Virus record (IMG/VR): IMGVR_UViG_2695420456_000021
Origin: a virus
Taxonomy: Duplodnaviria > Heunggongvirae > Uroviricota > Caudoviricetes
DNA length: 33,504 nucleotides
Reading direction: 5' to 3' (one strand)
A program made the position numbers and the translations under genes. Numbering within the stretch: the stretch's first letter is position 1; each line of letters begins with the position of its first letter. Shown here piece after piece: positions 3,894 to 25,009 of the stretch. The notes below the pieces were generated by a model, which saw only the letters and a list, made by a program, of their open reading frames with translations, made no database searches and was not told the DNA's origin.

Positions 3894-4165
3894 GTATTCG
3901 TATCGAAATTGGCGAACGTTATGTCGTTACCAGTGACAGCTTTCAGTTTATTCTCCACGAGAAAAAGAGAGCGGAAAGCGGTAAAAACGCCGGCCAGGAA
4001 TGGCTGGCGGTGGTTGGTTATTACCCGAAATTAAGCCAGCTCGTTTCCGGCCTGATGCATCACGATATTCTGACCGGAAGCGCAAAATCTTTTGCTGATT
4101 TAAACGCGCAGGTTGAGCAACTCAGCAAGCGTTGTTCAGAGGCTTTTGGCTCACATGGCCGTTAA
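3890..4165 (+). CDS. Hypothetical early-operon protein (P2 orf83 position)
   Basis: ORF track; overlaps upstream stop and the downstream A start. Confidence 0.5.
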   Translation: MSIRIEIGERYVVTSDSFQFILHEKKRAESGKNAGQEWLAVVGYYPKLSQLVSGLMHHDILTGSAKSFADLNAQVEQLSKRCSEAFGSHGR

Positions 4166-6230
4166 AGCCTCCGGGCGTTTTGTCCCTCCGTCAGCATTTG
4201 CCGCAGGCACCGGTAAGACGTTTACCGGTGCTTATGCATGGAACGCGCCACGCGAGGCCGTCGGGCGCGAAAGACCCCTTACACGTGACGAGATGCGTCA
4301 GGTGCAAGGTGTTTTATCCACGATTAACCGCCTGCCTTACTTTTTGCGTTCGCTGTTTACTTCACGCTATGACTACATCCGGCGCAATAAAAGCCCGGTG
4401 CACGGGTTTTATTTCCTCACATCCACTTTTCAGCGTCGTTTATGGCCGCGCATTGAGCGCGTGAATCAGCGCCATGAAATGAACACCGACGCGTCGTTGC
4501 TGTTTCTGGCAGAGCGTGGCCACTATGCGCGCCTGCCTGGAATGAATGACAAGGAGCTGAAAAAGTTTGCCGCCCGTATCTCATCGCAGCTTTTCATGAT
4601 GTATGAGGAACTCTGCGATGCATGGGTTGATGCGCATGGTGAAAAAGAATCGCTGTTTACGGATGAGGCGCAGGCTCACCTGTATGGTCATGTTGCTGGC
4701 GCTGCACGTGCTTTCAATATTTCCCCGCTCTACTGGAAAAAATACCGTAAAGGACAGATGACCACGAGGCAGGCATATTCTGCCATTGCCCGTCTGTTTA
4801 ACGATGAGTGGTGGATTAGTCAGCTTAAAGGCCAGCGTATGCGCTGGCATGAGGCGTTACTGATTGCTGTCGGGGAGGTCAATAAAGACCGTTCTCCTTA
4901 TGCCAGTAAACATGCCATTCGTGATGTGCGTGCGCGCCGCCAGGCAAATCTGGAATTTCTTAAATCGTGTGACCTTGAAAACAGGGAAACCGGCGAGCGC
5001 ATCGACCTTATCAGTAAGGTGATGGGCAGTATTTCTAATCCAGAAATTCGCCGGATGGAGCTGATGAACACCATTGCCGGTATTGAGCGTTACGCCGCCG
5101 CAGAGGGTGATGTGGGGATATTTATCACGCTTACCGCGCCGTCAAAGTATCACCCGACACGTCAGGTCGGAAAAGGCGAAAGTAAAACCGTCCAGCTAAA
5201 TCATGGCTGGAACGATGAGGCATTTAATCCAAAGGATGCGCAGCGTTATCTCTGCCGTATCTGGAGCCTGATGCGCACGGCATTCAAGGATAATGATTTA
5301 CAGGTCTACGGTTTGCGTGTCGTCGAGCCACACCACGACGGAACGCCGCACTGGCATATGATGCTTTTTTGTCATCCACGCCAGCGTAACCAGATTATCG
5401 AAACCATGCGTCGCTACGCGCTCAAAGAGGATGGCGACGAAAGAGGAGCTGCGCGAAACCGTTTTCAGGCAAAACACCTTAACCGGGGCGGTGCTGCGGG
5501 GTATATCGCGAAATACATTTCAAAAAATATCGACGGATATGCACTGGATGGTCAGCTCGATAATGATACCGGCAGACCGCTGAAAGACACTGCCGCGGCT
5601 GTTACCGCATGGGCGTCAACGTGGCGCATCCCGCAATTTAAAACGGTTGGCCTGCCGACAATGGGAGCTTACCGTGAACTACGCAAATTGCCTCGCGGCG
5701 TCAGTATTGCTGATGAGTTTGACGAACGCGTCGAGGCTGCTCGCGCTGCCGCAGACAGTGGTGATTTTGCGTTGTATATCAGCGCGCAGGGTGGGGCAAA
5801 TGTCCCGCGCGATTGTCAGACTGTCAGGGTTGCCCGTAGCCCGTCGGATGACGTTAACGAGTACGAGGAAGAAGTCGAGAGAGTGGTCGGCATTTACGCG
5901 CCGCATCTCGGCGCGCGTCATATTCATATCACCAGAACGACGGACTGGCGCATTGTGCCGAAAGTTCCGGTCGTTGAGCCTTTGACTTTAAAAAGCGGCA
6001 TCGCCGCGCCTCGGAGTCCTGTCAATAACTGTGGAAAGCTCACTGGTGGTGATACTTCGTTACCGGCTCCCACACCTTCTGAGCACGCCGCAGCAGTGTT
6101 GGATTTGATTGATATAGGGGTGGTTAGTTGGAATGATGCTGAGGTGATGACAGTTCTTAGGAAGAGGTTAAAAGATTACTCACGGGAATTGATGGTATTC
6201 AAGGGAAGGGCTAGCCAACGCCCAATCTGA
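4155..6230 (+). CDS. A: Rolling-circle replication initiator, P2 A-like (HUH endonuclease)
   Basis: HUH-like 'TPHWHMMLF' and tyrosine motif 'YIAKYISK'. Track start 4113 is a TTG; first in-frame ATG is 4155 (MAVKASGRF...). Start uncertain. Confidence 0.9.
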   Translation: MAVKASGRFVPPSAFAAGTGKTFTGAYAWNAPREAVGRERPLTRDEMRQVQGVLSTINRLPYFLRSLFTSRYDYIRRNKSPVHGFYFLTSTFQRRLWPRIERVNQRHEMNTDASLLFLAERGHYARLPGMNDKELKKFAARISSQLFMMYEELCDAWVDAHGEKESLFTDEAQAHLYGHVAGAARAFNISPLYWKKYRKGQMTTRQAYSAIARLFNDEWWISQLKGQRMRWHEALLIAVGEVNKDRSPYASKHAIRDVRARRQANLEFLKSCDLENRETGERIDLISKVMGSISNPEIRRMELMNTIAGIERYAAAEGDVGIFITLTAPSKYHPTRQVGKGESKTVQLNHGWNDEAFNPKDAQRYLCRIWSLMRTAFKDNDLQVYGLRVVEPHHDGTPHWHMMLFCHPRQRNQIIETMRRYALKEDGDERGAARNRFQAKHLNRGGAAGYIAKYISKNIDGYALDGQLDNDTGRPLKDTAAAVTAWASTWRIPQFKTVGLPTMGAYRELRKLPRGVSIADEFDERVEAARAAADSGDFALYISAQGGANVPRDCQTVRVARSPSDDVNEYEEEVERVVGIYAPHLGARHIHITRTTDWRIVPKVPVVEPLTLKSGIAAPRSPVNNCGKLTGGDTSLPAPTPSEHAAAVLDLIDIGVVSWNDAEVMTVLRKRLKDYSRELMVFKGRASQRPI
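6006..6025 (+). other. Candidate replication origin/nick site inside A (gcgcctcggagtcctgtcaa)
   Basis: From memory, P2/186-family ori lies in the 3' part of gene A with a sequence like this; not verified. Confidence 0.3.
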
Positions 6231-6402
6231 TTATGTTTTGTAATGATAAGTTAATGCTGAATGAGTGGCTCGCGCATAACCTTGCGGGAAAAAGAGCATA
6301 TTATGTACAGTTTTGAGGTTGGCTAGAGAGGATGGGCGAGATAGTTTGTGTTTGTGTGGGTTTGAGAAGTTTGATGCGCACATCAAAAATTGATACAACT
6401 GA

Positions 6403-6431
6403 TTGAAAAAATGATAAAAAAGCTGTTAAAT
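6403..6431 (+). promoter_or_regulatory. Putative sigma70 promoter for the cargo cassette (TTGAAA, 17-bp spacer, TTAAAT)
   Basis: Hexamers read from sequence about 25 bp upstream of ATG 6456; AT-rich context makes chance matches likely. Confidence 0.3.
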
Positions 6432-6455
6432 GCGTCAGTTTTCTAAGGGGGGAAG

Positions 6456-7586
6456 ATGAAAAAAATAACCAAGAGAGAAAGAGAGAGAGATATTTTACGA
6501 TCCTATTTACATCGTACAGGAAGAGATGTTGTATCTGCAGGGCGCTCTAAGATTAATCCTATTTCAAAAGCATCAAAAATAAATCGTTGGATAAATGCGC
6601 AAATTAAAGATGGATTAAATTGCGAAATAAGGAAAAATAGAGACCTTTTCCTTACTTTACCTAAAAAGATGAACTTTTCAAGTAATTACCATCGTACAAT
6701 GCAGGCCATACAAACGATTAGGCATCTTACGGGGCGGAAGATATTTAATAACCAATGTTATCGTCTTTGTTTTGTTGACTTTTCGAAGATTGAATATATT
6801 TCTGCATCTGCCGCATTGGTATTGACCGCGGAATTATCAAAATGGGATGATTCGGTAAGGCAACGCATTCGCCCAAAAGTGAAAACGTGGAATAAAAACA
6901 TACTCTCTCAATTTGATGAGTTGGGTTTTTTTGACTTATTTAGAAATAAAGATAGTTTTGAGCTTGAAAAAGAAAAGGAACCAAGTAATATCCGTTTTGT
7001 TAAGTATATGAAAGGACATTTACATGATGATGAAAAAACTCAGCATTTAAAAAAAGAAATAAAGCGTATTGTGGGAGAAGACCTTGGTAAATGGACTTTC
7101 CTATACAGTGGTTTGTCCGAAGCTATTACAAATGTTGTTCATCATGCTTATCCAGATAATAAAGGCTATCATGAGCATGATAAAAAATGGTATTTAACTG
7201 CTTCATATGATAGTTCAAGTAGAATAATAAAAGTAGTGTTTTATGATCAAGGTATTACAATTCCTGGGTCTTTGCCGGAATCTAAACTCCATGAAAAGGT
7301 TTTAAATTACCTTTCGAAGTTACCGCTTGCAGAACGAAAAAGAGATGAACAATTGTTAAAGGCTGCAGTTGAAATCAAACGTTCTAGTACGGGGGAAGAG
7401 GATCGGGGTAAAGGCTTGCAGGACTTGTTGGAGTTCATAAAGCAACGTGGTGAAGGTTATCTTTCAATTATGAGTGGTAAAGGCCTTTACAAATACTCAC
7501 AACATGATAAAAAATCTGAGGTAAAATCAGTAAGCTTCGCTCTGCCTGTTTGTGGTACACTTATAGTATGGAGTACAAAGCTATGA
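6456..7586 (+). CDS. Cargo protein 1 (376 aa): N-terminal STAS-like segment plus C-terminal GHKL/HATPase_c-like ATPase (anti-sigma-factor-kinase-like)
   Basis: RBS aagggggg before ATG. Motifs 'EAITNVVHHAY' (N-box-like), 'YDQGITIPG' (G1-like), 'DRGKGLQDL' (G2-like); N-terminal 'VDFSKIEYISASAALVL' resembles the STAS core. No Walker A. AT-rich. Confidence 0.75.
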   Translation: MKKITKRERERDILRSYLHRTGRDVVSAGRSKINPISKASKINRWINAQIKDGLNCEIRKNRDLFLTLPKKMNFSSNYHRTMQAIQTIRHLTGRKIFNNQCYRLCFVDFSKIEYISASAALVLTAELSKWDDSVRQRIRPKVKTWNKNILSQFDELGFFDLFRNKDSFELEKEKEPSNIRFVKYMKGHLHDDEKTQHLKKEIKRIVGEDLGKWTFLYSGLSEAITNVVHHAYPDNKGYHEHDKKWYLTASYDSSSRIIKVVFYDQGITIPGSLPESKLHEKVLNYLSKLPLAERKRDEQLLKAAVEIKRSSTGEEDRGKGLQDLLEFIKQRGEGYLSIMSGKGLYKYSQHDKKSEVKSVSFALPVCGTLIVWSTKL

Positions 7587-7972
7587 TTACTAGATTGGTT
7601 GCTAGCCTCATGAAAACATTGAAGATTGGTTCAGAGTTCTCGAAAGTTCCCAGAGGCCGCTATCGTACTGACGGGACAGCAAGTGGTGAACGGTTTAGAG
7701 AAGATTTCTTAAGGAAGCGTCTAAGCTTGCTTTCTGCTGGGGAAAAATTGCAGATAGTCATCGACGATGATGTCGAAGGATATGGTTCGTCTTTTTTGGT
7801 GGAGGGCTTTGCGGGCATGGTAAAATATGGATATATGCATGCCAATGAATTATTGTCTAAAATTGAAATTAAATATACTAATCCTGATTTTGATTTCTAT
7901 AAAAAGAAAATAGAACAATATATCAACGAGGCGCAGTTTAATTCGAAACGATATGAGCCAACAGTCGAATAA
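7583..7972 (+). CDS. Cargo protein 2 (129 aa): small STAS-like / DUF4325-like protein
   Basis: ATG 7583 overlaps the gene-1 stop as ATGA; ggag 8-9 nt upstream. Motif 'IVIDDDVEGYGSSFLVEGF'. Track start 7550 lacks an RBS. Confidence 0.65.
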   Translation: MITRLVASLMKTLKIGSEFSKVPRGRYRTDGTASGERFREDFLRKRLSLLSAGEKLQIVIDDDVEGYGSSFLVEGFAGMVKYGYMHANELLSKIEIKYTNPDFDFYKKKIEQYINEAQFNSKRYEPTVE

Positions 7973-8615
7973 TCCGATGTTTATTTTAGGTGAGAGTTCT
8001 GGTGAGTTCTCACCTAGTTTGCTTTTTATCAAGAAGGATAATGAAGAAGGCCTGAGTGCTACTCATGCAGTTAAGGATATTAATACGGTAATTGAAGTAG
8101 CTAGTTCTAATATTGTTGATGCAATACGGCATCCACCTGAAACGCCTATTTTATCGTCATCACTTATTACGGCTCTTATTAGTACTATTTGTGCGGCTAC
8201 TGCCGCATTTGCATATAATAAAGTCCATTGGCGTTCTGTTGTTAAACGGGAGACTAAAACCAAACTCCTGGAGAGTATTTCAGATGTGGTTAATGAGTTG
8301 CGTTCTGATGCTATTAGTTATTGGTTGAAGGGGTATTCAAAAAAGTCGGCGAAGTCTCTCTTAGAAGAGGAAATGAGAATTAAGGCGAGTTTAAATATAA
8401 TAAATTCGACTATAACAATATATGTTCAGCAAGAGTCGCGATGGAAAAGAAAGGATATTGAAGCTCAGTTAAGGGTTTTTCATGACGAACTTTTTGATAT
8501 TATAACAGGTGATGATTTTGAGTCTCAGGCAAGGAAGCAGGATAAGGCAAAGGTTTCTGCTATTTCTACAAAGTGTGTGGCTTTTCGCGTTTTATTAAAT
8601 ACCATCAAGTTTTAA
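7953..8615 (+). CDS. Cargo protein 3 (220 aa): predicted single-pass membrane protein, candidate effector
   Basis: Start overlaps the gene-2 3' end by 20 nt; hydrophobic stretch 'PILSSSLITALISTICAATAAFAY' (about residues 65-88); charged C-terminal region. Alternative start ATG 7977. Confidence 0.6.
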   Translation: MSQQSNNPMFILGESSGEFSPSLLFIKKDNEEGLSATHAVKDINTVIEVASSNIVDAIRHPPETPILSSSLITALISTICAATAAFAYNKVHWRSVVKRETKTKLLESISDVVNELRSDAISYWLKGYSKKSAKSLLEEEMRIKASLNIINSTITIYVQQESRWKRKDIEAQLRVFHDELFDIITGDDFESQARKQDKAKVSAISTKCVAFRVLLNTIKF

Positions 8616-8747: not shown

Positions 8748-8766
8748 GGCGAGGCGGGGAAAGCAC
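8748..8766. other. cos site (19-nt cohesive-end sequence ggcgaggcggggaaagcac)
   Basis: Matches the P2 cohesive-end sequence as I recall it; sits between the cargo island and Q as in P2. Confidence 0.6.
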
Positions 8767-8936: not shown

Positions 8937-9971
8937 TCAGCCGTTGTCAGTGTCCAGTGAGTAGTTTTTAAAGCGGATGACTTCCTGGCCGAGCCAGCCG
9001 TTTATCTCGCGGATCCTGTCCTGTAGCGGGATAAGCTCATTGCGGACAAAGACCTTTGCCACTTTCTCAATATCGCCCAGCGACCCGACGTTCTCCGGCT
9101 TGCCGCCCATCAACTGAAAGGGGATGCGGTGCGCGTCCAGCAGGTCAGCGGCGCTGGCTTTTTTGATATTAAAAAAATCGTCCTTCGTTGCCACTTCACT
9201 GAGCGGGATAATTTTAATGCCGTCGGCTTTCCCCTGTGGGGCATAGAGAAACAGGTTTTTAAAGTTGTTGCGGCCTTTCGACTTCACCATGTTTTCGCGG
9301 AGCATTTCGATATCGTTGCGATCCTGCACGGCATCGGTGACGTACATGATGTATCCGGCATGTGCGCCGTTTTCGTAATACTTGCGGCGGAACAGCGTGG
9401 CTGATTCATTCAGCCAGGCAGAGTTAAGGGCGCTGAGATATTCCGGCAGGCCGTACAGCTCCTGATTGATATCCGGCTCCAGCAGGTGAAACACGGAGCC
9501 GGGCGTGAAAGGTGTTGGCTCGTTGAAGGACGGCACCCACCAGTAAATATCTTCTTCCACACCACGGCGGGTATATTTTGCCGGTGAGGTTTCCAGTCTG
9601 ATGATCTTACCGGTGGTGCTGTAACGCTTTTCCAGAAACGCATTACCGAACACCAGAAAATCCAGCACAAAGCGGCTGAAATCCTGCTGGGAAAGCCACG
9701 GATGCGGGATAAATGTCGAGGCCAGAATATTACGTTTGACGTAAATCGGGGAGCTGTGATGCACGGCAGCACGCAGGCTTTTTGCCAGACCGGTAAAGCT
9801 GACCGGTGGCTCATACCATCTGCCGTTACTGATGCACTCGACGTAATCCAGAATGTCACGGCGATCGAGTACCGGCACCGGCTCACCAAAGGTGAATGCC
9901 TCCATTTTCGGGGCGCTGGCGGTCATTGTTTTTGCCGCTGGTCGCGGTGTTTTCCCTTTTTTCTTGCTCAT
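8937..9971 (-). CDS. Q: Portal protein, P2 Q-like (344 aa)
   Basis: ORF track; same length as P2 Q; start overlaps the P stop (TGATG). Confidence 0.95.
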   Translation of the reverse strand: MSKKKGKTPRPAAKTMTASAPKMEAFTFGEPVPVLDRRDILDYVECISNGRWYEPPVSFTGLAKSLRAAVHHSSPIYVKRNILASTFIPHPWLSQQDFSRFVLDFLVFGNAFLEKRYSTTGKIIRLETSPAKYTRRGVEEDIYWWVPSFNEPTPFTPGSVFHLLEPDINQELYGLPEYLSALNSAWLNESATLFRRKYYENGAHAGYIMYVTDAVQDRNDIEMLRENMVKSKGRNNFKNLFLYAPQGKADGIKIIPLSEVATKDDFFNIKKASAADLLDAHRIPFQLMGGKPENVGSLGDIEKVAKVFVRNELIPLQDRIREINGWLGQEVIRFKNYSLDTDNG

Positions 9972-20603: not shown

Positions 20604-22853
20604 ATGAGCACAAAATTCAGAACCGTTATCACCACTGCCGGTGCAGCAAAGCTGGCAGCGGCAACCGCGCCGGGAGGGCGGAAGGTCAACATTACCACGA
20701 TGGCCGTCGGGGATGGCGGTGGTAAATTGCCTGTCCCGGATGCCGGACAGACCGGGCTTATCCACGAAGTCTGGCGACATGCGCTGAACAAAATCAGCCA
20801 GGACAAACGAAACAGTAATTATATTATCGCAGAGCTGGTTATTCCGCCGGAGGTGGGCGGTTTCTGGATGCGTGAGCTTGGCCTGTACGATGATGCTGGA
20901 ACGTTAATTGCCGTGGCGAACATGGCCGAAAGTTATAAGCCAGCTCTTGCCGAAGGCTCAGGGCGTTCGCAGACCTGTCGCATGGTCATCATCGTCAGCA
21001 GTGTGGCCTCAGTGGCGCTGACCATTGACACCACAACGGTGATGGCGACGCAGGATTACGTTGATGACAAAATTGCAGAGCATGAACAGTCACGACGTCA
21101 CCCGGACGCCTCGCTGACCGCAAAAGGTTTTACTCAGTTAAGCAATGCGACCAACAGCACGTCTGAAACACTGGCCGCAACGCCGAAAGCGGTTAAGGCC
21201 GCCTATGACCTGGCTAACGGGAAATACACTGCGCAGGATGCCACCACAGCGCGAAAAGGCCTTGTCCAGCTCAGTAGCGCCACCAACAGCACGTCTGAAA
21301 CGCTCGCCGCAACACCAAAAGCGGTAAAGGCAGCATATGACCTTGCTAACGGGAAATACACTGCACAGGACGCCACCACAGCGCGAAAAGGTCTTGTCCA
21401 GCTCAGTAGCGCCACCAACAGCGATTCTGAAACGCTTGCGGCAACGCCAAAGGCGGTAAAGGCAGCATATGACCTCGCTAACGGGAAATATACCGCACAG
21501 GATGCCACCACAGCGCGAAAAGGTCTTGTCCAGCTCAGTAGCGCCACCAACAGTGATTCTGAAACGCTGGCTGCAACACCAAAAGCGGTGAAGTCTGCCT
21601 ATGACAATGCTGAAAAACGTCTTCAGAAAGATCAGAACGGTGCGGATATTCCTGATAAAGGACGCTTCCTGAGTAACATTAATGTTTACAGCAAAGGTGA
21701 AGTGGATAAGAAAAAGGGAATGCGAAAGTATTCGTTTGCAGCCCCTGCAAATGTCGTTGCCGGGAAGTGGTATCCCGTTATCTTTCGCCGTGCTGCCAGC
21801 CTTTCAGGAGAAATGGCATCCCGCGTCGTTATTTCCACTGGTTGTTATAACAGCGATTATGTAATGAATAACTGCGAGTTTAATGGCATGGTTATGCCCG
21901 GAGGCTGGACTGATCGTGGTTCATATGCGGCAGGTTATTTCTGGACGTATCAGACTAATGAGCGTTCAATTCATTCCATTGTTACAAGCCTGAAAGATGA
22001 TGATGTATGTAGTGTTTTTTATGTTGAAGCCAGAGCTTTCCCTGTACAAATTCTTGCAGAGGAAGGGCTAACGGTTATTGTTCCGACAGAGGATTATGTC
22101 GTCGGTCAGACGACATATAAGTGGGGGGCAACTAATCCCGCTACAGAAAGCACGAACGCGCAGGCTATTCTGGATTTTAAAAATGGGCGCGGTTATTACT
22201 GCTCACATCCATTTATTTCCAGCCTTTCAGGAAATGCTGCAACAGCAACAAAGTTAGCGAACGCAAGAAATATTAATGGTGTCAGATTTGATGGCTCTGC
22301 CGATATAAATATTAATACACTGGTTTCCAGAAACCGTGTTACTGCATTAGGTGGGAGCGTAAAGGGGACACCAGGTATTCAGATGTATGAGGCATACAAC
22401 AATGGCTACCCAACAGCCTATGGTAATGTGCTTCATCTCACTGGTGTAACCGCAGTAGGAGAGGGTGAGTTACTTATTGGCTGGAGTGGAACCAGCGGTG
22501 CTCATGCTCCGGCATATATTCGCTCCCGACGAGATACCACAGATGCTAACTGGTCTGGATGGGCGCAACTATATACAACTGCTCATAAACCCTCAGCGGG
22601 AGATGTTGGTGCATACACCAAAGCTGAGTCAGATTCACGTTATGTGAGAGACATGCGGCTGGGCGGTGCATCTACATATAAACCAGCAAATAATGGTATT
22701 ACATGGACGCATCAGGCTCCGTCAGGTTGCGTATATACCGGCATTATTGTTCAGGATACCGGCTCAAACTCTGCCGATAACATTGGTGGCGTATATTACA
22801 GACCGGTGCAGAAATACATTAACGGGACATGGTATAACGTGGCGCAGGTATAA
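20604..22853 (+). CDS. H: Tail fiber protein, P2 H-like (749 aa) with internal tandem repeats and compositionally distinct C-terminal domain
   Basis: ORF track; conserved N-terminus (MSTKFRTVITTAGAAKLAAA...); repeats at about 21109-21600; GC drops after about 21650. Confidence 0.9.
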   Translation: MSTKFRTVITTAGAAKLAAATAPGGRKVNITTMAVGDGGGKLPVPDAGQTGLIHEVWRHALNKISQDKRNSNYIIAELVIPPEVGGFWMRELGLYDDAGTLIAVANMAESYKPALAEGSGRSQTCRMVIIVSSVASVALTIDTTTVMATQDYVDDKIAEHEQSRRHPDASLTAKGFTQLSNATNSTSETLAATPKAVKAAYDLANGKYTAQDATTARKGLVQLSSATNSTSETLAATPKAVKAAYDLANGKYTAQDATTARKGLVQLSSATNSDSETLAATPKAVKAAYDLANGKYTAQDATTARKGLVQLSSATNSDSETLAATPKAVKSAYDNAEKRLQKDQNGADIPDKGRFLSNINVYSKGEVDKKKGMRKYSFAAPANVVAGKWYPVIFRRAASLSGEMASRVVISTGCYNSDYVMNNCEFNGMVMPGGWTDRGSYAAGYFWTYQTNERSIHSIVTSLKDDDVCSVFYVEARAFPVQILAEEGLTVIVPTEDYVVGQTTYKWGATNPATESTNAQAILDFKNGRGYYCSHPFISSLSGNAATATKLANARNINGVRFDGSADININTLVSRNRVTALGGSVKGTPGIQMYEAYNNGYPTAYGNVLHLTGVTAVGEGELLIGWSGTSGAHAPAYIRSRRDTTDANWSGWAQLYTTAHKPSAGDVGAYTKAESDSRYVRDMRLGGASTYKPANNGITWTHQAPSGCVYTGIIVQDTGSNSADNIGGVYYRPVQKYINGTWYNVAQV
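21109..21600 (+). repeat. In-frame tandem repeat, 132-bp unit (44 aa), about 3.7 copies, within tail fiber gene H
   Basis: Unit boundaries at 21241, 21373, 21505; encoded repeat '...SSATNS(T/D)SETLAATPKAVKAAYDLANGKYTAQDATTARKGLVQL'. Confidence 0.85.
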
Positions 22854-23665: not shown

Positions 23666-25009
23666 ATGGCTACTTATGCTTCTTATTTACCAGAATCACA
23701 AATTATCACTTTGTGCAAGGATTTCCCAGCGTTTACTGATCCTGAAAAATTAGATGGATTCATTAATCCAGAACAGTTTGGCGTGTTTTTTCATGAGTGG
23801 ATTCATTTTCTTCACAATATTTCCACAATTAATGGGTTTTCTATTTTTTGCACGCAAAACATCCTGTGGTCTAATTTTCGCTGGGCAATGGACAATCAGG
23901 ATGTATGTCTTGGTTCAAATGACATGGATCCAGCACATATCGAATCAAACAAAAATTTTCTCAGTTACATTCGTTCCAATAGGAGTCTGCATAAATGTAA
24001 CTTACCTTATTATGTAAAAGTAAACGACTTGTATTTTGAGGATGCAATAATCCATGACATGGAGGTTGCTGACGGTAGTGTTATATGTACATCATTAATA
24101 AAGTGTAGAATTTCTCATTCTGAAAACAAATACGATCTAGATTTAGGCGTGCTTGAAATACTTGAATCCGCAGCTTTTATGCTTGAATGTAAGTGTATTA
24201 ATGCGATGAATGGCTTCCCTCAAGAGGCACCCTTTTATCCGTATCATACTATCAAAGGCTTAGCAGCGAAAATTGCTCCGTCATTAAATGATGAAGATAT
24301 TATTTGTTGTATGTTAGCTTCTTTGCAATCTAATAACCCTCCCCAAGTATTATTCAATCTACTACATAAATGTGAATTATTACATTCTGATTGTAGGTAT
24401 GAACATCTAGTGGCGGAGGTGAAAAAACAATTAAGCGAACAAGATCAAATAATAAGCGAGTCACTTAATCAAATAATTCAAATGATTCCTGTTGATGAAC
24501 CGATGGGAAACTTTATCAAGCTTACTCTTAACAGAATAAGTAACAATTTGAACTATAGAAAGCAAAAACCGTTTTTTGAGTTAGATATAATAAAAAAAAT
24601 AGCAGAAAAAACTGAGTTTATGAATGAAGTAATACAGAAATTCGGTGGTTGCACTATCATCCAGGTAAGACATGGAGATGATAATGAACCACAGCGTGAT
24701 ATTATGTATGACTTTTGCTTACCTGAAAATAATGATTCAATTTTATTTGGTTCGAAAATGCTACGCGCTTGTTTTCACTTTATATTTATTCACTTTAAAC
24801 TTTCTGGTGAAATCATGAAGACAGAAGAATTAAATATTTCGCCGCGTAATAAATGCCCATTTTATACTGTTTGCTGTGCATCAATTCGAGCTAATAATAG
24901 TAATATCTGCGCTGAATCCCCTTGGAAATCAATGTCTATTGATGACAACAAAGGTTGTTATTATGCAGCAGCGATTAAAGCTACTAACCCACCAGTTTTG
25001 CCGGATTAA
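23666..25009 (+). CDS. Cargo protein (447 aa) with N-terminal HExxH motif and Cys-rich C-terminal half; possible Zn-dependent hydrolase, function unknown
   Basis: RBS agagga before ATG; 'FFHEWIHFLH' at residues 41-50 (codons about 23792-23806); many Cys pairs; about 32% GC in a sampled line; occupies the P2 Z/fun position. Confidence 0.7.
   Translation: MATYASYLPESQIITLCKDFPAFTDPEKLDGFINPEQFGVFFHEWIHFLHNISTINGFSIFCTQNILWSNFRWAMDNQDVCLGSNDMDPAHIESNKNFLSYIRSNRSLHKCNLPYYVKVNDLYFEDAIIHDMEVADGSVICTSLIKCRISHSENKYDLDLGVLEILESAAFMLECKCINAMNGFPQEAPFYPYHTIKGLAAKIAPSLNDEDIICCMLASLQSNNPPQVLFNLLHKCELLHSDCRYEHLVAEVKKQLSEQDQIISESLNQIIQMIPVDEPMGNFIKLTLNRISNNLNYRKQKPFFELDIIKKIAEKTEFMNEVIQKFGGCTIIQVRHGDDNEPQRDIMYDFCLPENNDSILFGSKMLRACFHFIFIHFKLSGEIMKTEELNISPRNKCPFYTVCCASIRANNSNICAESPWKSMSIDDNKGCYYAAAIKATNPPVLPD

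What the first reader, a model, noticed from the sequence alone, without database searches (positions are those of the whole stretch)
7953..8615. Third cassette gene encodes a single-pass membrane protein, a possible abortive-infection effector
The product has one hydrophobic helix ('PILSSSLITALISTICAATAAFAY', about residues 65-88) between a short N-terminal region and a charged, probably helical C-terminal region. As the last, overlapping gene of the cassette it is the natural candidate for the executing component.
Basis: inference. Interest (0 to 1): 0.6.

Follow-up and report, generated by a model that had tools for sequence, protein, structure and literature searches.

The report
Membrane output of kinase–STAS cassette
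The third gene of a three-gene cassette in a P2-like prophage's defence hotspot does encode a single-pass membrane protein, and it is most likely the killing or blocking component of an untested relative of the recently described VapKSC kinase–STAS–toxin anti-phage system.

Summary
Observation confirmed. Window 7953-8615 (+) is a 220-aa ORF with one hydrophobic segment (residues 65-89). An AlphaFold2 model (pLDDT 87) shows this helix running straight into a C-terminal four-helix bundle.

The protein defines an unnamed family: at least 240 clusters at 50% identity, with no Pfam, NCBIfam or PADLOC hit. In 108 members the hydrophobic segment is kept. In 107 of them K+R residues are more numerous on the C-terminal flank, which points to an N-out, C-in topology.

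The gene is always the last of a fixed trio. Gene 1 is a STAS plus SpoIIAB-like GHKL kinase. Gene 2 is a DUF4325 STAS protein with an invariant serine. Genes 1 and 2 are remote homologues of VapK and VapS (EMBO J 2026), where the kinase phosphorylates the STAS antitoxin and so frees a PIN toxin. Here a membrane protein sits in the toxin position.

The "effector" reading is therefore supported by analogy, position and conservation. Toxicity, phage defence and the trigger are untested.

Rousset et al. 2022 catalogued the cassette, and flagged a paralogue as "1 TM in protein 3", but did not list either among the systems they tested.

Verdict: a new variant of a known kind, of moderate interest.

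The parts
6456..7586 (+). Gene 1, 376 aa. It has a basic N-terminal extension, a STAS-like domain (about residues 55-175) and a C-terminal GHKL (Bergerat-fold) kinase/ATPase of the anti-sigma-factor-kinase type. It is VapK/CapK-like.
   Evidence: - Invariant GHKL motifs in 36 homologues: N-box E222..N226..H230-A231, G1 D264-Q-G266..I269-P270, G2 R317-G-K-G320-L, G3 G367-T368.
- Weak Pfam HATPase_c_2 hit and weak NCBIfam RsbW/SpoIIAB hits.
- AlphaFold2 model pLDDT 77.6. The best PDB matches are SpoIIAB (1th8, 1l0o; probability 1.0, TMt 0.63).
- hhalign against VapK: E 2.5e-5, probability 75%, 149 columns.
- The STAS call rests on the beta/alpha secondary-structure pattern and the 'ISTSAALVLTAEL' motif. 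It was not formally matched to a STAS model.
7583..7972 (+). Gene 2, 129 aa (ATGA overlap with gene 1). A DUF4325 STAS-like protein with a C-terminal helix. It is VapS-like and is the presumed kinase substrate and inhibitor of gene 3.
   Evidence: - Pfam PF14213 DUF4325 at 23.8 bits (gathering threshold 23), E 3.8e-5.
- VapS itself hits the same family at E 2.7e-17.
- Motif G68-S69-S70-F71-L..E74..G78, with S70 invariant in 40 sequences.
- hhalign places S69 opposite the VapS phosphosite S48, so the invariant S70 sits one residue after it.
- The start at 7583 follows the RefSeq annotation of a near-identical locus.
7790..7792 (+). Codon for Ser70 of gene 2, the invariant serine at the position of the STAS phosphoserine.
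   Evidence: Invariant in 40 orthologues and kept in P4 system #69 protein 2, which reads 'YGRSF'. hhalign places the neighbouring S69 opposite VapS S48, so S70 is one residue after that position. Phosphorylation itself is inferred.
7953..8615 (+). Gene 3, the finding: a 220-aa single-pass membrane protein and founder-type member of an unnamed family.
   Evidence: - ORF confirmed.
- 29 close clusters in Enterobacterales.
- A profile search finds 240 clusters at 50% identity.
- No Pfam, NCBIfam or PADLOC hit at E<=1, only non-significant PHROGs hits (E 0.0074 and 0.038), and no PDB-sequence hit better than E 0.083.
7953..8144 (+). Gene 3 residues 1-64: a variable N-terminal tail predicted to lie outside the cytoplasm. 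Residues 1-38 are low-confidence or disordered; residues 39-59 form an amphipathic helix.
   Evidence: - 42% identity over residues 1-45 among close homologues, against 77-83% for the rest.
- pLDDT 46-55 for residues 1-40.
- The tail is absent in the short (about 150 aa) homologues from Alphaproteobacteria, Nitrospinales and Binatia, where the TM helix starts at residues 4-12.
8145..8219 (+). Gene 3 residues 65-89: the transmembrane helix. It has a small-residue face (A74, T78/A, A81/G, A82, A84/S, A85) and ends in the conserved F-N89-x-x-H92-W93.
   Evidence: Fraction of small residues: position 81, 0.99; position 84, 0.98; position 85, 1.00. Asn89 is present in 92% of 108 members.
8220..8615 (+). 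Gene 3 residues 90-220 plus the stop codon: a cytoplasmic four-helix bundle continuous with the TM helix. Invariant Y123-W124 and the T185-G-x-D-F189-E-S loop lie at the end of the bundle far from the membrane and are the presumed docking surface.
   Evidence: - AlphaFold2 pLDDT 95-98.
- The placement of the conserved residues at the distal end follows from the helix boundaries.
7986..8017 (+). A 13-14 bp RNA hairpin inside codons 12-22 of gene 3, followed in this window by a U-rich tract. It may attenuate gene 3 expression.
   Evidence: - Terminator-like hit.
- Minimum free energy z-score -3.06.
- 5 of 14 pairs show compensatory changes across 6 Enterobacterales homologues; 0 of 500 shuffles reach the observed covariation.
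- The hairpin is not present in most other clades. Its function is inferred.
6231..6455 (+). AT-rich leader between phage gene A and gene 1, presumed to hold the cassette's promoter.
   Evidence: GC content drops from about 0.52 to 0.35-0.39 here. There is a weak sigma-70-like match at 6362-6390, but the number of matches in the region is not above chance. Not shown to be a promoter.
8748..8766 (+). The P2 cohesive-end (cos) 19-mer. It places the cassette in the cos-proximal gpA/gpQ ('tin/old') hotspot.
   Evidence: Exact match to GGCGAGGCGGGGAAAGCAC, with 0 matches expected by chance; the identity of that sequence as P2 cos comes from my own knowledge. The hotspot definition is from PMC9122126.

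Best explanation
Gene 3 is the membrane-inserted output, meaning the toxin or effector, of a three-protein, toxin-antitoxin-like defence module carried in the P2 gpA/gpQ hotspot. The module works like VapKSC.

**Proposed mechanism (inferred)**
1. In uninfected cells the gene 2 STAS/DUF4325 protein binds the cytoplasmic four-helix bundle of gene 3, probably at the conserved YW / TGxDFES tip, and keeps it inactive.
2. An infection-linked signal activates the gene 1 STAS-GHKL kinase. By analogy the signal is single-stranded DNA or DNA damage.
3. The kinase phosphorylates the invariant Ser70 of gene 2, and gene 2 lets go of gene 3.
4. Freed gene 3 self-associates through the small-residue/Asn face of its TM helix and compromises the inner membrane, by depolarisation or leakage. 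This arrests or kills the cell before the phage completes its cycle.

**What is shown**
- The gene order and its conservation.
- The domain identities of genes 1 and 2.
- The TM helix, the topology signal and the fold of gene 3.

**What is inferred**
- Every protein-protein contact.
- The phosphorylation.
- The trigger.
- The membrane damage.
- The defence phenotype.
For: **Operon conservation**
- g1-g2-g3 order with overlaps or gaps of at most about 25 nt is found in about 40 of 45 genome loci fetched through gene 1. These reach down to 30% gene 1 identity and include Alphaproteobacteria, Nitrospinales, Binatia and Entotheonella.
- The same order is found in 41 of 41 testable loci fetched through gene 3.

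**Link to VapKSC**
- Gene 1 is an anti-sigma-kinase-type GHKL: SpoIIAB is the best PDB fold match, and hhalign to VapK gives E 2.5e-5.
- Gene 2 and VapS both belong to Pfam DUF4325. Gene 2 has an invariant Ser one residue after the position aligned to the VapS phosphosite S48.
- In VapKSC the third gene is the toxin, the STAS protein is its antitoxin, and phospho-mimic S48E abolishes neutralisation (PMC13373217).

**The third position is variable across the wider kinase+DUF4325 group**
- PIN in VapKSC, and PIN.4 described as 'coupled to DUF4325'.
- This family here.
- A non-homologous 1-TM protein in P4 system #69.

**Properties of gene 3**
- Positive-inside rule in 107 of 108 members.
- The TM helix is the most conserved segment, with small residues at positions 74/78/81-82/84-85 and Asn89 in 92%.
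- The TM helix is continuous with the bundle, which would allow a cytoplasmic binding event to control the TM helix.

**Genomic context**
- The cassette sits in the P2 cos-proximal hotspot and has low GC.
- It is present in only 15 of 5426 complete E. coli genomes.
- Homologous loci have integrases, AriA, DRT reverse transcriptases, AbiLi, PtuA, JetA, a type I methyltransferase, DrmD and Cas1/CARF among their nearest neighbours.
- 6 of 8 randomly chosen unannotated P4 hotspot loci proved protective (PMC13586616).

**Expression control**
- A conserved hairpin early in gene 3 fits low, controlled expression of a harmful protein.
Against: - There are no experimental data for this family. It is absent from PADLOC-DB 2.0, and no DUF4325 or HATPase entry, and none of these accessions or peptides, appears in Rousset's table of tested systems.
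- Homology of genes 1 and 2 to VapK and VapS is remote. hhalign probability is 75% for the kinase over its GHKL half only, and 8% for the STAS pair. The STAS link rests mainly on shared Pfam membership.
- The aromatic residue needed for ssDNA activation in CapK/VapK (W68/F54) has no conserved counterpart at the manually aligned position (Y114 is variable), so the trigger may differ.
- The bundle fold is generic and gives no functional clue.
- This E. coli TM segment is only marginally hydrophobic.
- Within its own clade gene 3 is never replaced by another effector, which would also fit a core structural or sensing role.
- A paired g2-g3 structure prediction could not be run.
Confidence: 0.5

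Rival explanations
1. Gene 3 is not the effector. It is a membrane anchor, scaffold or sensor that holds or regulates the kinase/STAS pair at the inner membrane, for instance to sense phage DNA entry or envelope perturbation. The gene 1 kinase would then be the acting enzyme and would phosphorylate phage or host targets.
For: - Gene 3 is invariably linked to genes 1 and 2 and is never swapped within the clade. That is as expected for a core subunit.
- The only enzyme in the cassette is the kinase.
- The variable outside tail could be a diversifying sensor.
Against: - The outside tail is absent in many homologues, so it cannot be the essential sensor.
- Characterised relatives of the kinase (SpoIIAB, RsbW, CapK, VapK) act on their STAS partner, not on bulk targets (and established knowledge of partner switching).
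- A passive anchor would not be expected to have its TM helix as the most conserved segment.
Confidence: 0.2
2. Gene 3 is a regulated but non-lethal superinfection-exclusion protein. Once released it blocks a membrane step of the incoming phage, such as DNA translocation or holin/lysis timing, rather than killing the host.
For: - It is a single-pass inner-membrane protein with a small outside tail, encoded by a prophage in a locus known for phage-exclusion genes.
- Nothing in the sequence shows lethality.
Against: - The same trio occurs in ordinary chromosomal contexts and in many non-enteric lineages. A phage-specific receptor or translocon block is unlikely to be that general.
- The kinase/STAS switch resembles a toxin-release switch.
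- The outside tail is dispensable in many homologues.
Confidence: 0.1
3. The trio is a stress-responsive toxin-antitoxin or addiction module that stabilises the prophage or island, or responds to DNA damage in general. Any anti-phage effect would be absent or incidental.
For: - The overlapping genes have a toxin-antitoxin-like layout.
- The authors of VapKSC themselves note that the line between stress response and immunity is blurred.
- Many loci have housekeeping neighbours.
Against: - The cassette lies in the P2 hotspot, and homologous loci neighbour defence genes and integrases.
- VapKSC gave about 2 logs of protection against one phage.
- This rival also treats gene 3 as the toxin, so it differs from the best explanation only in biological purpose.
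Confidence: 0.12
4. The hydrophobic segment is not a membrane span, and gene 3 is a soluble helical protein with a buried or oligomerising helix.
For: In this E. coli protein the segment is rich in Ser, Thr and Ala. Its KD score is 1.78 and its summed Hessa free energy is positive. Comparable hydropathy arises in 16% of shuffles.
Against: - Homologues have clearly hydrophobic segments at the same place (median KD 2.05), uncharged runs of 19-42 residues, and a near-universal positive-inside charge bias.
- In the model the segment extends beyond the bundle as part of a 61-residue helix.
- Rousset et al. scored '1 TM in protein 3' for the paralogue with Phobius.
Confidence: 0.04

Closest known systems
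VapKSC (VapK kinase, VapS STAS antitoxin, VapC PIN toxin); Chambers et al., EMBO J 2026, PMC13373217
   Same: - A three-gene operon in the same order.
- The first protein is STAS plus GHKL kinase; remote homology over the GHKL domain, hhalign E 2.5e-5.
- The second protein is a small DUF4325 STAS protein with a conserved Ser and a C-terminal helix.
- The third protein occupies the toxin position.
- Both are found in and near defence islands.
   Different: - The third protein here is a single-pass membrane protein with a four-helix bundle, not a PIN nuclease.
- Gene 1 is 74 residues longer, with a basic N-terminal extension.
- Sequence identity is low, and the STAS pair is linked mainly through Pfam.
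- The residue tied to ssDNA sensing is not visibly conserved.
- There is no experimental evidence for this cassette.
CapK/CapS regulators of CBASS, Bub and Thoeris operons (same paper)
   Same: A GHKL-kinase plus STAS-substrate pair of the anti-sigma-factor type, linked to bacterial immunity.
   Different: - CapS carries a winged-helix DNA-binding domain and represses a downstream immune operon. Gene 2 has no such domain.
- Nothing but gene 3 and the cos site lies downstream here.
Rousset et al. 2022 P2-hotspot system #61 ('DUF4325', 68 occurrences, '1 TM in protein 3') and P4-hotspot system #69 ('HATPase_c | DUF4325')
   Same: - #61 is a paralogous version of the whole trio: gene 1 at 25% identity (E 2e-18) and gene 3 at 30% identity (E 8e-20).
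- The exact cassette of this window is listed by accession in their Table S5A.
- #69 has homologous first and second proteins.
   Different: - These are catalogue entries only. No DUF4325 or HATPase entry appears in their Table S2 of tested systems, and no function was proposed.
- The third protein of #69 is a 1-TM protein with no detectable homology to gene 3.
SpoIIAB-SpoIIAA-sigmaF and RsbW-RsbV-sigmaB partner switching (established knowledge)
   Same: The same kinase fold, with SpoIIAB as the best PDB match. There is a STAS partner with a phosphorylatable Ser, and a third protein whose activity is set by who binds whom.
   Different: - The output is a sigma factor held by the kinase, not a membrane protein.
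- Gene 1 carries its own STAS-like domain.
- These systems have no link to mobile elements.
Single-TM effectors of other defence systems, such as the type III CRISPR protein Cam1 (own knowledge, not tested here)
   Same: An N-terminal TM helix followed by a cytoplasmic regulatory domain. Membrane damage is gated by an event at the cytoplasmic domain.
   Different: - No sequence or specific fold relationship.
- Those effectors are gated by cyclic nucleotides, whereas here the gate is presumably release of a protein inhibitor.

Membership tests
VapKSC | First gene encodes a kinase with a GHKL domain of the anti-sigma-factor-kinase type | tested here: met
   GHKL motifs are invariant. SpoIIAB is the top PDB fold match. 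hhalign to VapK gives E 2.5e-5 over 149 columns.
VapKSC | The kinase also carries an N-terminal STAS domain | tested here: inconclusive
   The AlphaFold2 secondary structure of residues 56-175 has a beta/alpha pattern, and the 'ISTSAALVLTAEL' motif resembles a STAS motif. No profile or fold match to a STAS domain was obtained. hhalign to VapK did not cover this half.
VapKSC | Second gene encodes a small STAS (DUF4325) protein with an absolutely conserved Ser/Thr and a C-terminal helix | tested here: met
   Gene 2 hits PF14213 above the gathering score, and VapS hits the same family at E 2.7e-17. S70 is invariant in 40 sequences; hhalign places the neighbouring S69 opposite VapS S48. The C-terminal 'DFxFYxxKIxxYI' segment is conserved.
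VapKSC | Third gene encodes a VapC-like PIN-domain nuclease toxin | tested here: not met
   Gene 3 has no PIN hit in Pfam, NCBIfam or PADLOC. It is modelled as a TM helix plus four-helix bundle.
VapKSC | Kinase activated by ssDNA through a conserved aromatic residue (VapK F54, CapK W68) | tested here: inconclusive
   By manual alignment the equivalent position, gene 1 Y114, is variable in 36 homologues. Other Trp residues (W130, W145) are invariant. No protein-DNA modelling was available.
VapKSC | The STAS protein neutralises the toxin, and the operon protects against phage | not testable with these tools
   This needs experiments.
CapK/CapS transcriptional regulators | The STAS protein carries a winged-helix DNA-binding domain and sits upstream of an immune operon | tested here: not met
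   Gene 2 is 129 aa and its only significant domain hit is DUF4325. Downstream there is only gene 3, then cos and the portal gene.
Rousset 2022 P2-hotspot 'DUF4325' trio (system #61) | A three-gene cassette at the gpA/gpQ hotspot: large protein, DUF4325 protein, 1-TM protein, all homologous to the catalogued ones | tested here: met
   BLASTP gives E 2e-18 for gene 1 and 8e-20 for gene 3. Protein 2 of #61 carries the same GYGSSFLEEAFGG motif. The window's own proteins are listed in their Table S5A.
Phage holins / pinholins | A small membrane protein encoded in the lysis cassette next to an endolysin, with most of its mass in the membrane | tested here: not met
   Gene 3 lies in the accessory hotspot between gpA and cos, not in the lysis region. 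About 60% of the protein is a soluble bundle. There is no holin family hit.
Known defence families in PADLOC-DB 2.0 | A profile match to any of 5027 models | tested here: not met
   No hit at E<=1 for any of the three proteins.

The most novel reading that the evidence does not exclude
The gene 3 family would be a new class of defence effector. It would be a single TM helix rigidly coupled to a cytoplasmic four-helix bundle, and its pore-forming or depolarising self-assembly would be gated by a phosphorylation-controlled STAS inhibitor. If so, the CapK/VapK kinase-STAS switch is a general, portable sensor that bacteria and phages plug onto very different killing modules: nuclease, transcription control, and membrane disruption.
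Probability: 0.35. Interest if true: 0.65.

Novelty: new variant of a known kind. Interest (0 to 1): 0.55.

Why it matters
- **Broader reach of the switch.** If confirmed, the GHKL-kinase/STAS switch described only in 2026 would extend from gene regulation and a PIN toxin to a membrane effector.
- **A name and a testable mechanism.** An unnamed, Pfam-less protein family would gain both. The family has at least 240 clusters at 50% identity and occurs from Enterobacterales to Alphaproteobacteria, Nitrospinales and Binatia.
- **One less unknown in the P2 hotspot.** It would explain one of the unannotated occupants of that hotspot. About 19% of P2-like elements have no recognisable defence gene there (PMC13586616).
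- **Easy to test.** The cassette is 2.2 kb, native to E. coli, and gives clear mutational predictions.

Tried and rejected
**Library searches of gene 3**
- Pfam, NCBIfam and PADLOC gave no hit at E<=1; PHROGs gave only non-significant hits (E 0.0074, 0.038), and the PDB sequence search gave nothing better than E 0.083.
- The weak RsbRD_N hit (E 0.089) is treated as noise.
- One family member's weak hit to 'HisKin-conflict' (E 0.0057) is treated as noise.

**Split histidine kinase idea**
- I considered that gene 3 is a DHp-like phosphotransfer domain of a split histidine kinase, because of the motif 'FHDELFD'.
- Rejected: His177 is not conserved in the wider family.

**Fold searches of gene 3**
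- Foldseek against BFVD returns nothing with E below 0.01.
- AFDB50 was not available.

**Sequence searches of the PDB for VapS/CapS relatives**
- Profiles of genes 1 and 2 found nothing useful.
- The VapS and VapK sequences were instead read from the paper's supplementary AF3 model file.

**Complex prediction**

**Locus retrieval**
- The search for related loci with the full family alignment failed because the alignment was too diverse. A narrower alignment worked.

**Rousset's '3 hypothetical proteins' system (protects against P1)**
- I checked whether the cassette is this system.
- None of the window's accessions, peptides or DUF4325/HATPase labels occur in their table of tested systems.
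- PADLOC gives no hit, so the cassette is most likely not that system. I did not see the 3HP sequences themselves.

**Phage collection**
- A near-identity search found no deposited phage genome with the cassette. Six IMG/VR contigs do carry it.
Full report
**Setting**

The window is a P2-like prophage. Its genes run integrase, C, cox, B, replication gene A (4113-6230), then the cassette, then portal Q (8937-9971, minus strand), terminase P, and the capsid and tail genes.

The cassette spans 6456-8615 on the plus strand. It has 35-39% GC, against 52-59% on either side. It ends 130 bp before an exact copy of the 19-nt P2 cohesive end at 8748-8766 (the identity of that sequence is from my own knowledge). 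This is the cos-proximal gpA/gpQ ("tin/old") hotspot that Rousset et al. showed to be a reservoir of anti-phage systems (PMC9122126).

The same 2.25 kb is found at 99.4% identity or better in 15 of 5426 complete E. coli genomes, always on the chromosome. It is in none of the deposited phage genomes. It is on six IMG/VR contigs.

The ORF at 7953-8615 encodes 220 residues. RefSeq starts the gene at the second ATG, window 7977. Among 15 homologues of 46-82% identity Met1 and the following residues are kept and Met9 is not. I therefore keep 7953, which overlaps gene 2 by 20 nt.

Residues 64-89 form the only long uncharged run.
- On this sequence alone the case is modest. The best 19-residue Kyte-Doolittle window is 1.78, the summed Hessa scale is +1.2 kcal/mol, and 16% of shuffles reach that hydropathy. 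The 26-residue uncharged run is reached by 1.6% of shuffles.
- The family settles it. A profile search of 1.84 billion representatives finds 240 clusters at 50% identity.
- In 108 aligned members the segment is in the same place, with median KD 2.05. The uncharged run has a median of 27 residues.
- K+R within 15 residues averages 0.92 before and 4.36 after the segment, and 107 of 108 members have more after it.

This is the positive-inside signature of an N-out, C-in single-pass protein.

AlphaFold2 with a 108-sequence alignment gives pLDDT 87. It models one 61-residue helix (66-126) whose first third is the hydrophobic segment. The rest of that helix is the first helix of a four-helix bundle, completed by helices 130-160, 163-185 and 198-219, at pLDDT 95-98. 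No dedicated TM predictor was available to me. Rousset et al. scored "1 TM in protein 3" for a paralogue using Phobius.

**Anatomy of the protein**

- The outside tail (residues 1-64) is poorly conserved: 42% identity over residues 1-45 among close relatives. It is missing altogether in the roughly 150-aa homologues of Alphaproteobacteria, Nitrospinales and Binatia, where the helix starts at residues 4-12 and is again followed by Arg/Lys.
- The TM helix is the most conserved segment, at 83% identity.
- Across the family one face of the helix is lined by small residues. The fraction of small residues is 0.78 at position 74, 0.84 at 78, 0.99 at 81, 0.89 at 82, 0.98 at 84 and 1.00 at 85. The helix ends in F-N89 (92%)-x-x-H92-W93.
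- Small-xxx-small faces and membrane-embedded Asn are classical drivers of TM helix association (established knowledge). I infer that the helix packs against copies of itself or a partner rather than serving as a passive anchor.
- In the bundle the invariant or near-invariant residues are Y123-W124, E140 and T185-G186-x-x-F189-E190. From the helix boundaries, Y123-W124 and the T185-E190 loop lie at the end of the bundle far from the membrane. That looks like a docking surface, not an active site.

**The gene never travels alone**

- I fetched 45 genome loci through gene 1. About 40 carry a gene 3 family member one small gene downstream, down to 30% gene 1 identity and in many phyla.
- One further locus (L037) has a recognisable but sub-threshold copy.
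- The exceptions are degraded or very distant loci.
- Conversely, I fetched 45 metagenome and viral loci through a gene 3 motif. All 41 with upstream DNA have gene 2 and then gene 1 in front.
- Genes overlap or are separated by at most about 25 nt.

**What genes 1 and 2 are**

Gene 1 (376 aa):
- It has all four Bergerat-fold motifs invariant.
- Its model (pLDDT 77.6) matches the anti-sigma-factor kinase SpoIIAB best in the PDB (probability 1.0, TMt 0.63), ahead of GyrB.
- Its N-terminal half has a STAS-like beta/alpha pattern and motif, preceded by a basic extension. The STAS assignment is by inspection only.

Gene 2 (129 aa from 7583):
- It passes the Pfam threshold for DUF4325, a STAS-like family.
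- It has the invariant motif G-S-S70-F-L-x-E-x-F-G-G.

**The closest known system**

A full-text search led to Chambers et al., EMBO J 2026.
- CapK (HTH-STAS-GHKL) phosphorylates a serine of the STAS repressor CapS when ssDNA from DNA damage activates it.
- In the related three-gene VapKSC operon, VapS (STAS plus a C-terminal helix) is the antitoxin of a PIN toxin, VapC. The phospho-mimic S48E abolishes neutralisation. The operon gave about 2 logs of protection against phage Bas42.

I read the VapS and VapK sequences from the paper's supplementary AF3 model.
- VapS hits DUF4325 at E 2.7e-17.
- The gene 1 profile aligns to VapK over the GHKL domain at E 2.5e-5, probability 75%.
- The gene 2 profile aligns weakly to VapS (E 0.0043, probability 8%), but in a register that puts G-S-S-F opposite the VapS phosphosite. 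S69 is opposite S48, and the invariant S70 is one residue further on.
- An older survey already noted a VapC clade "transcriptionally coupled to DUF4325" (PMC5499597).

So genes 1 and 2 are remote, architecture-sharing relatives of VapK and VapS. The cassette fails VapKSC membership on exactly one defining feature: the third protein is not a PIN nuclease.

**How it most likely works**

By analogy (inference), gene 2 holds the cytoplasmic bundle of gene 3 inactive. An infection cue activates the kinase. Ser70 of gene 2 is phosphorylated, and gene 3 is released. Its TM helices then associate and damage the inner membrane, giving growth arrest or death.

Supporting points beyond the analogy:
- **The third slot varies across the wider kinase+DUF4325 group.** It holds a PIN nuclease, this family, or, in P4-hotspot system #69, a 1-TM protein with no detectable homology to gene 3. 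The first two proteins of #69 are homologous to genes 1 and 2.
- **Gene 3 has been exchanged between divergent backbones.** The Pantoea copy is 50% identical to protein 3 of P2 system #61, while their kinases are 31% identical.
- **Neighbours of homologous loci include mobile-element and defence genes.** Among 115 flanking ORFs there are integrases, AriA, DRT reverse transcriptases, AbiLi, PtuA, JetA, a type I methyltransferase, DrmD and Cas1/CARF. There is no formal background control. The mad3 and mad8 hits are ABC transporters and are probably spurious.
- **Most randomly chosen unannotated P4 hotspot loci were protective** (6 of 8; PMC13586616).

Points against, or unknown:
- There are no experiments.
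- The homology is remote.
- The aromatic residue linked to ssDNA sensing is not visibly conserved, so the trigger is open.
- Gene 3 is never swapped within its own clade.
- A g2-g3 complex could not be modelled.

I put the effector reading at about 0.5. The rivals are anchor or sensor for the kinase (0.2), non-lethal exclusion (0.1), stress or addiction module (0.12; this also treats gene 3 as the toxin) and not a membrane protein (0.04).

**Prior record**

- The window's own proteins (WP_032254602, WP_126646822) are listed in Rousset's Table S5A as "hypothetical + DUF4325 + hypothetical".
- A paralogous trio is their P2 system #61: "DUF4325", 68 occurrences, "1 TM in protein 3".
- Neither the accessions, nor diagnostic peptides, nor the domain labels occur in their table of tested systems.
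- The EMBO paper mentions no transmembrane variant.
- Further literature searches found nothing else.

The TM feature has thus been noted in a supplementary table. The link to the kinase-STAS-toxin logic, the family's breadth, its topology and its structure appear to be new.

**An extra feature inside the gene**

Codons 12-22 of gene 3 (7986-8017) form a 13-14 bp hairpin.
- In this window it is followed by a U-rich tract (z -3.06).
- Across six Enterobacterales homologues 5 of 14 pairs show compensatory changes, and no shuffle reaches the observed covariation.
- It is absent in most other clades.
- It may limit gene 3 expression relative to gene 2, as expected for a toxin. This is speculation.

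**Verdict**

- The finding is a new variant of a known kind: a VapKSC-like switch with a membrane output.
- Interest is moderate (0.55). It is a compact candidate native to E. coli, with sharp and cheap experimental tests.

Noticed in passing
window 7986-8017: A conserved 13-14 bp RNA hairpin lies inside codons 12-22 of gene 3 and looks like a terminator in this window. It has compensatory base changes in six Enterobacterales homologues and a similar hairpin in a Vibrio locus (L027). It is absent in most other clades.
   Followed up: yes
window 23666-25009 (+): A 447-aa ORF sits in a second low-GC island (about 33% GC, roughly 23.4-25.1 kb) between the tail-fibre assembly gene and the sheath gene. 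This is the P2 Z/fun accessory position. It has no Pfam or PADLOC hit and is a second candidate accessory or defence gene.
   Followed up: partly
window 8748-8766: An exact 19-nt P2 cohesive-end (cos) sequence lies 130 bp downstream of the cassette.
   Followed up: yes
window 4113-6230; L001 3756-5774: In a near-identical RefSeq locus the replication gene A next to the cassette is annotated as a pseudogene missing its C-terminus. The GC drop begins near 6200. The recombination junction that brought in the cassette may therefore lie in the 3' end of gene A.
   Followed up: no
window 20604-22853 (+): The tail-fibre ORF contains about four tandem copies of a motif of roughly 45 residues (…TAQDATTARKGLVQLSSATNSxSETLAATPKAVKAAYDLANGKY…).
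   Followed up: no
L009 7574-8209 compared with Rousset 2022 Table S5B system #61: The gene 3 phylogeny disagrees with that of gene 1. Pantoea gene 3 is 50% identical to protein 3 of #61, while the two kinases are only 31% identical over 167 residues. This suggests that the membrane module is shuffled between divergent kinase/STAS backbones.
   Followed up: partly
Rousset 2022 Table S1, P4 system #69 (sequence read): A P4-satellite hotspot cassette has homologues of genes 1 and 2 but a different, non-homologous 1-TM third protein of 166 aa.
   Followed up: partly
L017 7514-8153; L022 7618-8103; L031: Some loci show decay. Gene 3 is split by a frameshift in L017 and truncated in L022. In L031 gene 1 is truncated and genes 2 and 3 are missing.
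   Followed up: no
window 6456-6650 (gene 1 residues 1-65): Gene 1 has a conserved, strongly basic N-terminal extension (MKKxTxKQRxRDV…) that VapK lacks. It might bind nucleic acid or membrane. It has no HTH hit.
   Followed up: no
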